A DNA stretch of 64,000 nucleotides from Escherichia coli (GCF_030384885.1 NZ_CP128613.1), one strand, 5' to 3'. Positions 60,834 to 61,952 are shown, numbered from the stretch's first letter. The notes: a model not told the origin generated them from the sequence alone. Made by a program: numbers and translations.

Positions 60834-60978
60834 TATGTATTTTGCTGATTGATACAAAAATTATATTATTCATCAAAAAGTTAGCGTCTTGCCAAGTCGT
60901 TAATTGTCACCTTTTCTCCATAGTGATATCGTCCCTGTTGTTATTATTATTTCTATAATTATATGAGGGATCATATCT

Positions 60979-61677
60979 ATGTCTTTTAAAACGTCTTTTG
61001 AAGGTGTCCAACCGGTTGTGATGACCGATCGCGCCACCTTTATCCGCCGTGCTTATATGCATCTGGCTGGGGCAGTTGTCGGGTTCATCATTCTCAGCGC
61101 GCTGTTTATCTTTAGTGGGCTTGGCAAAATGATGCTTAGGGTGCTGATGAACAGTGGTCAGTTTGGTTGGCTGGTGGTGCTGGGTGCTTTTATTCTGGTC
61201 AGCATGCTGGCGACTCGTCTGGCAGATAATGTGGAGTCTAATCAGACCCAACTGATTGGACTGGGGATATACGTACTGGCAGAAGCGTTAATTTTTGCAC
61301 CTTTACTGACACTGGCAGCGTATATTAATCCAGCAATTATTGGCGCGGCGGGCATCACCACAGCACTGCTTGTGGGTGGTCTGACATTCACTGCCTTCAC
61401 GACCAAAAAAGATTTCTCTTTCATGCGTTCGTTTTTAACCATGGCGGGCTTTATCGCTTTCGGTGCCATTATCGCGAGCATTTTTATGGGATTCTCACTG
61501 GGCGTCTGGTTCTCGGCGGCAATGGTGCTGTTGTGTGCTGGCTTCGTGCTGTACGACACGTCTAATATTATTCATCATTATCCTACCGATCGTCCGGCAG
61601 GTGCGGCGCTACATCTCTTCGCCTCTATTGCTACCATGTTCTGGTATGTTCTGCGCATTTTCATGTCCCGCGATTAA
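60979..61677 (+). CDS. Bax inhibitor-1 / YccA (TMBIM) family inner-membrane protein
   Basis: 232-aa ORF with GAGGGA RBS 8 nt upstream; about 7 hydrophobic segments; C-terminal region (...LYDTSNIIHHY...FMSRD) resembles E. coli YccA (...ETSNIIHGGETNY...FASRD). Confidence 0.75.
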   Translation: MSFKTSFEGVQPVVMTDRATFIRRAYMHLAGAVVGFIILSALFIFSGLGKMMLRVLMNSGQFGWLVVLGAFILVSMLATRLADNVESNQTQLIGLGIYVLAEALIFAPLLTLAAYINPAIIGAAGITTALLVGGLTFTAFTTKKDFSFMRSFLTMAGFIAFGAIIASIFMGFSLGVWFSAAMVLLCAGFVLYDTSNIIHHYPTDRPAGAALHLFASIATMFWYVLRIFMSRD

Positions 61678-61690
61678 CCCTGCTTGTATA

Positions 61691-61722
61691 AACCAGCGAA
61701 ATTATTCGCTGGTTTTCCCGTT
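61691..61722 (+). terminator. intrinsic terminator after the BI-1-family gene
   Basis: Perfect 10-bp inverted repeat AACCAGCGAA-ATTA-TTCGCTGGTT followed by a T-rich tract, 13 bp after the stop. Confidence 0.6.
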
Positions 61723-61952
61723 TATTCATTGATCGAAATAAGAGCAAAAACATCCACCTGACGCTTAAATGAAGGTACTGCCTTAATTTTCTGCAGACAA
61801 AAGGCGTGACGATGGTCGAAAATGGCACTTTCGTTAGCGGGGATAATCCGTTATTGAACAATTTATCCTCTGTCCATTTCACGATGAAAAAAATGTAGTT
61901 TTTTCAAGGTGAAGCGGTTTAAATTCGTTCTCAAATTACAGTCAGGACGCGT

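What the first reader, a model, noticed from the sequence alone, without database searches (positions are those of the whole stretch)
60834..61760. Extra Bax-inhibitor-1/YccA-family membrane protein gene inserted between atpC and glmU
From memory, K-12 has only about 350 bp of non-coding DNA between atpC and glmU. Here the gap is 1,170 bp and holds a 232-aa multi-pass membrane protein gene with its own AT-rich upstream region, a good RBS and a perfect-stem intrinsic terminator. The protein shows the C-terminal signature of the BI-1/YccA family (compare YccA ...ETSNIIHGG...FASRD with ...LYDTSNIIHHY...FMSRD). YccA-type proteins modulate FtsH-dependent proteolysis, so this would be an additional paralogue in a core, highly expressed chromosomal neighbourhood next to oriC.
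Basis: partly seen in the sequence, partly recalled or inferred. Interest (0 to 1): 0.55.

Follow-up and report, generated by a model that had tools for sequence, protein, structure and literature searches.

The report
Rare ancestral BI-1 membrane-protein gene
This is a real gene for a small seven-helix membrane protein of the Bax-inhibitor-1 family that most E. coli have lost, not a new insertion: related species carry it at the same spot and this strain's copy closely matches that of Escherichia fergusonii, so it is an ordinary, already catalogued but unstudied gene.

Summary
A 232-aa ORF (60979-61677, +) fills a 1,170-bp atpC-glmU spacer that is 350-352 bp in K-12 and almost all E. coli; only 6 of 5,426 complete genomes carry it. 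It matches Pfam Bax1-I over its full length (E 1e-32), models confidently as a helical bundle whose only significant PDB matches are B. subtilis YetJ, and is under strong purifying selection (dN/dS 0.04-0.10).

The gene is not inserted. E. fergusonii, E. albertii, Salmonella, Superficieibacter and a Citrobacter all carry an orthologue between atpC and glmU, and a rare E. coli allele keeps a significant relic of its 3' end and terminator. No mobile-element, plasmid, phage or defence signal was found.

The window's allele is about 2% from E. fergusonii's (dS 0.07, against 0.80 to E. albertii) in a recombination mosaic. It was therefore most likely restored or exchanged by homologous recombination, with direction unproven.

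It is not a YccA orthologue (30 bits against a cutoff of 353). Like YccA, it lacks the second aspartate of the YetJ pH sensor. Function is inferred only. RefSeq already lists it (WP_000008757.1). Interest is low.

The parts
60801..60830 (+). atpC (atp operon) intrinsic terminator. It marks the left edge of the segment that ordinary E. coli lack.
   Evidence: 13-pair stem followed by a T-run. All 'empty' E. coli align up to about 60833.
60834..60978 (+). AT-rich 5' region of the gene, with candidate sigma-70 hexamers (TTGTCA-17-TATCGT at 60904-60932; GTGATA-16-TATTAT at 60923-60950) and a GAGGG Shine-Dalgarno at 60965-60969.
   Evidence: GC 0.38-0.41. The promoter-like sites are no more numerous than chance, so the promoter is inferred only. 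The Shine-Dalgarno and ATG context are conserved in five genera. Twelve of the ~24 differences from E. fergusonii cluster at 60843-60923.
60979..61677 (+). CDS of a 232-aa Bax-inhibitor-1 (BI-1/TMBIM) family inner-membrane protein, identical to RefSeq WP_000008757.1.
   Evidence: ORF. Pfam Bax1-I E 1.2e-32, residues 20-228. AlphaFold2 pLDDT 89, pTM 0.85. The ten best Foldseek matches are all BsYetJ, TM 0.66-0.78. dN/dS is 0.04-0.10 among orthologues. RefSeq annotation.
61690..61715 (+). Intrinsic-terminator hairpin of the gene (11-bp perfect stem, 4-nt loop, then TTTT).
   Evidence: I6. One search gives -15.3 kcal/mol, z -4.66. The hairpin is conserved in Escherichia orthologues, and Salmonella has its own hairpin at the equivalent place.
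61638..61718 (+). The stretch (last 40 nt of the CDS, stop codon, terminator) that survives as a diverged relic in the 387-bp spacer of E. coli 14EC033-type genomes.
   Evidence: Local alignment score 47 against a maximum of 18 in shuffles (0 of 1000). Alignment A2. Three complete genomes have this allele (H7-H9).
61722..61741 (.). Palindrome TTATTCATTGATCGAAATAA at the start of the conserved glmU upstream region. It marks the right edge of the indel and is probably a glmU regulatory operator.
   Evidence: Invariant in all Escherichia loci, with or without the gene. Identifying it as a NagC site is from memory and was not tested.
53895..62650 (.). Mosaic tract (atpI to mid-glmU) in which this E. 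coli lineage is closer to E. fergusonii than to ordinary E. coli.
   Evidence: Differences to E. fergusonii L014 against differences to ordinary E. coli: atpI-atpH 2-11 vs 24-32 of 2576; glmU 5' half 2-10 vs 19-29 of 698. There is no such affinity in mnmG-rsmG (about 260 vs 46-65) or from the glmU 3' half onward. Related genomes that lack the gene also show the affinity.

Best explanation
The ORF is a functional gene for a 7-TM inner-membrane protein with the BI-1/TMBIM fold. It belongs to a widespread, uncharacterised subfamily that is distinct from the three K-12 paralogues YccA, YbhL and YbhM.

It is the ancestral occupant of the atpC-glmU spacer in the Escherichia/Salmonella group of Enterobacteriaceae. 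Almost all E. coli have lost it by deletion. A small E. coli lineage, including this window, carries an allele very close to that of E. fergusonii inside a region of inter-species recombination mosaic. That allele was therefore most likely put back, or exchanged, by homologous recombination using the conserved atp and glmU flanks, not by any mobile element.

Shown: family, fold, purifying selection, synteny, rarity, the relic and the mosaic.

Inferred: the gene is transcribed from its own promoter between two terminators. The protein acts, like other BI-1 proteins, as a small cation/proton-leak type channel and/or as a YccA-like partner or substrate of the FtsH protease. TMBIM5 combines both roles. 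Its gating must differ from YetJ, because the second aspartate of the pH-sensing pair is replaced by an invariant Ser216, with an invariant His212 one helical turn away.

My confidence is about 0.8 for the identity and evolutionary part and about 0.35 for any specific biochemical role.
For: Gene and family:
- ORF; Pfam PF01027, E 1.2e-32; RefSeq 'Bax inhibitor-1/YccA family protein' WP_000008757.1.
- AlphaFold2 pLDDT 89; the top 10 PDB matches are all YetJ and nothing else is significant.
- dN/dS 0.04-0.10 across five genera; conserved Shine-Dalgarno and start.

Ancestral position:
- The order atpC-gene-glmU is found in E. fergusonii, E. albertii, Salmonella, Superficieibacter and a Citrobacter.
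- dS between genera is saturated, as expected for old vertical descent.

Loss in E. coli:
- 5,418 of 5,424 matching complete genomes have the short spacer; K-12 has 352 bp.
- The 14EC033-type allele keeps a significant relic, FCYILRIFISRN* plus a hairpin.

Exchange with E. fergusonii:
- Gene dS is 0.073 to E. fergusonii against 0.80 to E. albertii.
- glmU 5'-half dS is 0.012 against 0.126 for an ordinary E. coli, then 0.18 in the 3' half.
- The six carriers are exactly the six best glmU-5' matches among 5,424 genomes.
- Polymorphisms in atpC are shared across the two species.

No mobility: no plasmid hit, no PHROG or PADLOC family, no terminal repeats and normal GC.

Motifs: D193 aligns with YetJ D171; S216 aligns with YetJ D195 and with the YccA Ser; H212 and S216 are invariant in 18 subfamily members.

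Literature: YccA is both a substrate and an inhibitor of FtsH; TMBIM5 is both a Ca2+/H+ exchanger and an inhibitor of the FtsH homologue AFG3L2; the di-aspartyl pair is the pH sensor (PMC9379554).
Against: - Direction of transfer is not proven. All carriers share the same ~24 differences from every sampled E. fergusonii, so the donor is not a sampled E. fergusonii.
- Twelve related E. coli genomes share the fergusonii-like atp operon but lack the gene, and one of them (R32_14_1F) has the same glmU haplotype as carrier EC42405. The gene could equally have been lost repeatedly within this lineage.
- The ordinary 350-bp K-12-type spacer shows no significant relic (115 of 1000 shuffles score as well; p about 0.03 against the 14EC033 relic). 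The age of the deletion in E. coli is therefore not fixed.
- No expression data exist, and the promoter is not distinguishable from chance.
- No functional data exist for this subfamily, and no conserved gene neighbour gives a clue.
Confidence: 0.72

Rival explanations
1. Vertical retention. This small E. coli lineage never lost the ancestral gene. The deletion allele spread through the rest of E. coli, and the near-identity with E. fergusonii reflects transfer from such an E. coli lineage into E. fergusonii, or ongoing exchange in both directions.
For: - The region shows polymorphism shared in both directions between the species.
- Carriers differ from all sampled E. fergusonii by the same ~24 sites.
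- The fergusonii-like atp operon is a property of the whole 18-genome lineage, including members without the gene.
- The K-12-type spacer has no demonstrable relic.
Against: - The gene is very common in E. fergusonii assemblies: the main allele alone is indexed in 596 collection blocks. It is present in only 6 of 5,426 complete E. coli genomes.
- The E. coli relic ends ...SRN*, like E. albertii and Salmonella. It does not end ...SRD*, as in the window and E. fergusonii, and it is 27% diverged from both. This suggests that E. coli's own allele was a different one.
- Twelve of the 18 genomes of the lineage already have the ordinary deleted spacer.
Confidence: 0.2
2. One reading: an extra BI-1/YccA paralogue newly inserted into the atpC-glmU spacer of E. 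coli by horizontal acquisition, possibly with a mobile or defence context.
For: The gene is rare in E. coli, has its own AT-rich 5' region and terminator, and has distant homologues in unrelated phyla.
Against: - Orthologues sit at the same locus in five enterobacterial genera.
- A relic of the gene is present in E. coli that lack it.
- No flanking repeats, no integrase, normal GC.
- No plasmid match, and the only 'phage' hits are Salmonella chromosomal DNA.
- No PADLOC or PHROG family.
Confidence: 0.04
3. The ORF is a decaying or non-functional remnant, or an annotation artefact, of no consequence to the cell.
For: - Most E. coli do without it.
- Some Salmonella copies are shortened to 212-221 aa.
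- No promoter could be shown.
Against: - The reading frame is intact and of identical length in six genera, with dN/dS 0.04-0.10.
- 59 columns are invariant across 18 subfamily members from several phyla.
- The fold prediction is confident, and the Shine-Dalgarno and terminator are conserved.
Confidence: 0.04

Closest known systems
The same protein as already catalogued: RefSeq WP_000008757.1 'Bax inhibitor-1/YccA family protein' (E. coli, E. fergusonii, some E. albertii)
   Same: 100% identical sequence, with the same locus between atpC and glmU.
   Different: Nothing. It is an automatic family-level annotation. My three literature searches were on the general family and on recombination, not on this protein by name, and surfaced no study of it.
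E. coli YccA (FtsH substrate and modulator)
   Same: - Same Pfam family.
- 35% identity over the last 95 residues, including the TSNIIH motif and the SRD C-terminus.
- Both have Ser in place of the TM7 aspartate of the YetJ/YbhL 'LYLD' motif.
- Both have an N-terminal tail; here it is predicted disordered.
   Different: - Only 30 bits against the 353-bit cutoff of the YccA equivalog model.
- No detectable similarity in the N-terminal two thirds.
- YccA has Glu where this protein keeps Asp193.
- Different locus.
- An interaction with FtsH is untested.
Bacillus subtilis YetJ (BsYetJ), the solved bacterial TMBIM pH-gated Ca2+ leak channel
   Same: Same fold: Foldseek probability 1.0, TM-score 0.66-0.78 over about 220-230 columns. 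The TM6 aspartate is conserved, D193 = D171.
   Different: - 18-20% identity; not found by sequence or profile search.
- The second aspartate of the pH sensor (D195) is Ser216 here.
- His212 is invariant in this subfamily, where YetJ has Ser.
E. coli YbhL and YbhM (the other K-12 Bax1-I proteins)
   Same: Same Pfam family; inner-membrane proteins of similar size.
   Different: YbhL shares 25% identity over 134 aa and keeps the canonical LYLD motif. YbhM shows no significant pairwise similarity.
Mitochondrial TMBIM5 (Ca2+/H+ exchanger that also inhibits the FtsH-type m-AAA protease AFG3L2)
   Same: Same superfamily. It shows that channel and protease-modulator roles can coexist in one BI-1 protein sitting in an energised membrane (PMC9379554).
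   Different: It is eukaryotic, and TMBIM5 keeps the di-aspartyl motif. It is cited as an analogy only and no direct comparison was made here.

Membership tests
Pfam Bax1-I / BI-1 / TMBIM family (PF01027) | Significant full-length match to the family profile | tested here: met
   E 1.2e-32, score 113.9, query residues 20-228 on model positions 2-207 of 207.
Pfam Bax1-I / BI-1 / TMBIM family (PF01027) | Seven-transmembrane-helix fold as in BsYetJ | tested here: met
   AlphaFold2 model with pLDDT 89, pTM 0.85 and helices at 13-46, 60-84, 88-116, 119-142, 149-170, 176-199 and 206-231. The ten best Foldseek PDB matches are all YetJ, TM 0.66-0.78. This rests on a predicted model, not a solved structure.
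YetJ/TMBIM6-type pH-gated Ca2+ leak channels | Di-aspartyl pH sensor (YetJ D171 on TM6 and D195 on TM7) | tested here: not met
   D193 aligns with D171, but the D195 position is Ser216, which is invariant in 18 subfamily members.
YetJ/TMBIM6-type pH-gated Ca2+ leak channels | pH-dependent Ca2+ flux | not testable with these tools
   Requires proteoliposome or cell-based flux assays.
YccA orthologues (NCBIfam NF007765, FtsH protease modulator YccA) | Score above the curated equivalog cutoff | tested here: not met
   30.1 bits against a cutoff of 353. BLASTP aligns only residues 141-232 at 35% identity.
YccA orthologues (NCBIfam NF007765, FtsH protease modulator YccA) | Binds FtsH/HflKC and is degraded by FtsH from its N-terminal tail | not testable with these tools
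   Only a disordered N-terminal tail (residues 1-13, pLDDT below 50) is compatible with this. No interaction data exist.
Syntenic enterobacterial orthologue group at atpC-glmU | Same flanking genes and orientation in other genera | tested here: met
   The order atpD-atpC-gene-glmU-glmS is found in E. fergusonii, E. albertii, Salmonella, Superficieibacter and a Citrobacter. A Chitinimonas homologue lies in an unrelated context.
Syntenic enterobacterial orthologue group at atpC-glmU | Purifying selection on the coding sequence | tested here: met
   Nei-Gojobori dN/dS is 0.04-0.10 wherever dS is measurable.
Mobile-element or island insertion | Terminal repeats or target-site duplication, mobility genes, deviant composition, or copies on plasmids or phages | tested here: not met
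   No boundary repeats. GC about 0.49 in the CDS. The extra segment holds a single gene. No plasmid match. The 'phage' hits are Salmonella chromosomal DNA.
Anti-phage defence systems (PADLOC) / phage protein families (PHROGs) | Match to a defence or phage protein model | tested here: not met
   No family at E <= 0.01 in either library.

The most novel reading that the evidence does not exclude
The Asp193 / His212 / Ser216 subfamily could be a functionally distinct branch of bacterial BI-1 proteins. Members are found in Enterobacteriaceae, Chitinimonas, Verrucomicrobia, Myxococcota, Planctomycetes and Bacteroidia, and share the invariant motif YP-x-(D/N)-x-PAGAALHLFAS. One possibility is a histidine-based pH or metal sensor that couples the state of the energised membrane to FtsH-type proteolysis. 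If so, its loss in E. coli and its restoration by cross-species recombination next to the ATP synthase operon might be driven by selection and not be neutral.
Probability: 0.1. Interest if true: 0.45.

Novelty: new member of a known kind. Interest (0 to 1): 0.2.

Why it matters
For genome annotation the lesson is modest. A gene that looks like an insertion relative to K-12 is in fact the ancestral state, and K-12 carries the deletion.

It is also a tidy example of a core-neighbourhood gene that is lost in one species and then reappears through homologous recombination with a sister species, using highly conserved flanks (the atp operon and glmU) and no mobile element.

For BI-1 biology, it marks a conserved but unstudied bacterial subfamily that lacks the canonical second aspartate of the pH sensor. 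It could be compared with YccA, which shares that substitution, to ask what separates channel-type from protease-modulator-type family members. None of this is surprising to a specialist, and the protein is already catalogued.

Tried and rejected
1. Sequence and profile searches of the PDB with the protein and with an 18-member profile found nothing. The link to YetJ came only from structure prediction plus Foldseek and from YbhL as an intermediate.

2. Fixed 'diagnostic' sites between E. fergusonii and ordinary E. coli were too few to map a tract: 25 in 14.6 kb and none in the atp operon. I replaced this with per-segment difference counts and a site-by-site view.

3. My first idea was that the fergusonii-like tract from atpI to mid-glmU was the imported fragment that brought the gene. 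I rejected that simple form because 12 related genomes without the gene share the tract.

4. I had claimed that nearly all E. coli keep a relic. This was rejected, because the K-12-type spacer is not significantly similar to the gene (115 of 1000 shuffles) and only marginally similar to the 14EC033 relic (p about 0.03). Only the 14EC033-type allele, in 3 complete genomes, is a demonstrable relic.

5. The 13-nt perfect direct repeat at 60863 and 61565 does not work as a deletion substrate. The junction it predicts does not match the relic.

6. L015, first counted as E. fergusonii, has E. coli-like mnmG and glmS, so I removed it from the reference set.

7. Guilt by association across 70 loci found no recurrent neighbour. 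The two largest 'clusters' were antisense ORFs overlapping the gene itself.

9. The consensus terminator scan missed the gene's hairpin because of its short T-run. Folding shows the hairpin is real.

Full report
**1. What is in the sequence**

atpC ends at 60782 and glmU starts at 61953, so the spacer is 1,170 bp. It holds one long ORF on the + strand, 60979-61677, ATG start, 232 aa. The ORFs that overlap it on the other strand are mechanical products of the listing.

The spacer begins with the atp operon terminator, a 13-pair stem at 60801-60830. Then comes an AT-rich stretch (GC 0.38-0.41), followed by a GAGGG Shine-Dalgarno 9 nt before the ATG. After the stop codon there is an 11-bp perfect hairpin at 61690-61715. 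It folds at -15.3 kcal/mol, z = -4.66, and none of 200 shuffles fold as well. It is followed by only four T, which is why the consensus scan did not list it.

Promoter-like hexamers exist upstream (TTGTCA-17-TATCGT with a TG, 60904-60932). However, four such sites against 2.5 +/- 1.8 expected is not evidence, so the promoter is inferred.

So is the recollection about K-12: MG1655 has 352 bp and no gene there, and strain 503025 has 350 bp.

**2. How rare it is in E. coli**

Of 5,426 complete E. coli genomes, 5,424 match the spacer's ends but only 6 hold the whole interval. These are 2013C-4282 (100% identical), 2017-02-2CC, EC42405, N96, MFDS1022581 and MFDS1019527. RefSeq annotates the gene in all of those examined as 'Bax inhibitor-1/YccA family protein', WP_000008757.1. 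In the larger protein collection the exact sequence is seen on 361 contigs. The gene is rare but already catalogued.

**3. What the protein is**

Pfam Bax1-I (PF01027) matches residues 20-228 over the whole model, E 1.2e-32.

The only NCBIfam hit is the YccA equivalog model at 30 bits against a curated cutoff of 353, so this is not YccA. Pairwise comparisons with the K-12 paralogues gave:
- YccA: aligns only over the last 95 residues, 35% identity.
- YbhL: 25% identity over 134 residues.
- YbhM: no significant similarity.

Sequence and profile searches of the PDB found nothing. An AlphaFold2 model built on 18 subfamily members is confident (pLDDT 89, pTM 0.85) and all-helical. Its ten best Foldseek matches in the PDB are all B. 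subtilis YetJ (probability 1.0, TM-score 0.66-0.78), and nothing else is significant.

Orthologues from six taxa keep the same length and reading frame, with dN/dS of 0.04-0.10. The Shine-Dalgarno and start context is conserved across genera. This is a working gene for a BI-1/TMBIM-fold membrane protein.

**4. The pH-sensor motif**

In YetJ and in eukaryotic TMBIM proteins a pair of aspartates (YetJ D171 and D195) forms the pH sensor (PMC9379554). I obtained the YetJ sequence through a YbhL search and aligned everything together.
- Asp193 of this protein corresponds to D171.
- The D195 position ('LYLD' in YetJ and YbhL) is Ser216 here ('LFAS'), as it is in YccA ('LYVS').

In 18 subfamily members from several phyla, D193, H212 and S216 and the run P-A-G-A-A-L-H-L-F-A-S are invariant. 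The defining sensor of the YetJ type is therefore not met. The protein resembles YccA at this position, and it has its own invariant histidine one helical turn before Ser216.

**5. It is not an insertion**

Looking up where close and more distant orthologues are encoded gave the same gene order, atpD-atpC-gene-glmU-glmS, in five groups:
- E. fergusonii
- E. albertii
- Salmonella enterica
- Superficieibacter
- a Citrobacter

A Chitinimonas homologue (66% identity) sits in an unrelated context. Synonymous divergence between genera is saturated, as expected for an old resident of the locus.

Aligning 'empty' E. coli spacers to the window shows that the 387-bp allele of strain 14EC033 still contains the last ~40 nt of the CDS, the stop codon and the terminator hairpin, all in diverged form (it reads ...FCYILRIFISRN*). 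Three complete genomes have this allele. The similarity scores 47 against a maximum of 18 in 1,000 shuffles and maps to window 61638-61718.

No mobile-element, plasmid, phage or defence signal was found:
- The boundaries have no terminal repeats, and composition is ordinary.
- No plasmid carries a homologue.
- The two 'phage' hits are Salmonella chromosomal DNA.
- PADLOC and PHROGs give nothing.

The short K-12 spacer is therefore the derived state.

A caution applies. The ~55 nt that fill the common K-12-type spacer between the atpC terminator and the conserved glmU upstream region are not significantly similar to the gene. They are only marginally similar to the 14EC033 relic (p about 0.03). 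I therefore cannot say that all E. coli carry a relic, or date the deletion.

**6. Where this strain's copy came from**

The window's gene differs from E. fergusonii's at 14 of 699 coding sites (dS 0.073, dN 0.004). It differs from E. albertii's with dS 0.80. For comparison, E. fergusonii differs from E. coli by 11% in mnmG-rsmG and by 25% in the rsmG-atpI spacer. The two alleles thus share an ancestor much more recent than the species.

The flanks tell the same story:
- In the first half of glmU, dS to E. fergusonii is 0.012 for the window, against 0.126 for an ordinary E. coli. It rises to 0.18 in the second half.
- The six carriers are exactly the six best matches to the window's glmU 5' half among 5,424 genomes.

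The picture is a mosaic and not a single clean import:
- The window's rsmG-atpI haplotype is shared by 18 genomes, of which 12 lack the gene and have the ordinary spacer.
- These relatives also have the fergusonii-like atp operon.
- One relative, R32_14_1F, has the same glmU haplotype as carrier EC42405.
- atpC polymorphisms are shared across the two species.
- All carriers share the same ~24 differences from every sampled E. fergusonii, and half of these cluster in 80 nt upstream of the gene.

I conclude that the gene moves in and out of E. coli chromosomes by homologous recombination through its conserved flanks. The window's allele belongs to the E. fergusonii allele family.

Entry into E. 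coli from an E. fergusonii-like donor is the more parsimonious direction. The gene is common in E. fergusonii and present in 0.1% of E. coli, and the E. coli relic ends ...SRN* and not ...SRD*. Direction is not proven, and I give retention plus reverse transfer about 0.2.

**7. Function**

Nothing here tests function. No conserved neighbour across 70 loci offers a clue.

From the family, two roles are plausible, and TMBIM5 shows they need not be exclusive (PMC9379554):
- a small cation/proton-leak channel of the YetJ/TMBIM type;
- a YccA-like substrate and inhibitor of the FtsH protease.

Two features lean towards YccA: the Ser at the second sensor position and the C-terminal similarity. The retained Asp193 and the invariant His212 suggest that some protonatable gate is kept. 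I commit to 'BI-1-fold inner-membrane protein acting in ion or envelope homeostasis, probably with an Asp-His instead of an Asp-Asp sensor, possibly through FtsH', at about 0.35 for any specific version.

**8. Verdict**

The family and the rarity are right. 'Inserted' is wrong, and 'YccA-type' is unproven and fails the orthologue test.

The gene is an already catalogued, uncharacterised member of a known family. Its presence here is an ordinary case of gene loss and recombinational exchange between sister species. Interest is low (0.2).

The most novel reading not excluded is that this Asp/His/Ser subfamily is a functionally distinct BI-1 branch under selection next to the ATP synthase operon. 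I give it a probability of about 0.1 and an interest of 0.45 if true.

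Noticed in passing
window 61722-61741: The palindrome TTATTCATTGATCGAAATAA lies 6 nt after the gene's terminator and is invariant in all Escherichia loci, with or without the gene. From memory it resembles a NagC/Mlc-type operator of the glmU promoter region. All deletions stop just short of it.
   Followed up: partly
window 53281-60782, compared with L014: E. fergusonii differs from E. coli by 11% in mnmG-rsmG and 25% in the rsmG-atpI spacer, but by 1% or less across the whole atp operon, with a sharp change at atpI. 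atpC polymorphisms are shared between the two species (fer_L004 groups with the carriers; fer_L014, L016 and L005 group with ordinary E. coli).
   Followed up: partly
L015 (ENA metagenome contig k141_87424): This contig has E. coli-like mnmG and glmS, but its BI-1 gene region is identical to E. fergusonii (0 of 887 differences). It is either another E. coli carrier with a fresh import or a chimeric metagenome assembly.
   Followed up: no
L013 16839-21816; also L018-L021 and L107-L109: All carriers and their gene-less relatives have the lpf-O113 long polar fimbria operon between glmS and pstS. lpfC is frameshifted in 2013C-4282. The operon is absent in 14EC033 and VCSW5 and cut by IS1 in strain 503025 (L017).
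   Followed up: no
P0079, P0082, P0083 (Salmonella enterica): These Salmonella versions of the protein are 212-221 aa instead of 232. This may reflect alternative start calls or copies in decay, which would point to loss in progress in Salmonella as well.
   Followed up: no
window 60863-60875 and 61565-61577: A perfect 13-nt direct repeat, ATATTATTCATCA, lies 702 bp apart, one copy upstream of the gene and one near its 3' end. It does not fit the deletion junction seen in the E. coli relic and is probably a chance match in AT-rich sequence.
   Followed up: yes
L061 (Planctomycetaceae MAG) and other loci: Distant homologues (about 46% identity overall) end with a C-terminus nearly identical to the enterobacterial one (...LYDTSNILHHY...FASIATMFWYVLRLFMSRD). 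TM6 and TM7 are therefore far more conserved than the rest of the protein.
   Followed up: partly
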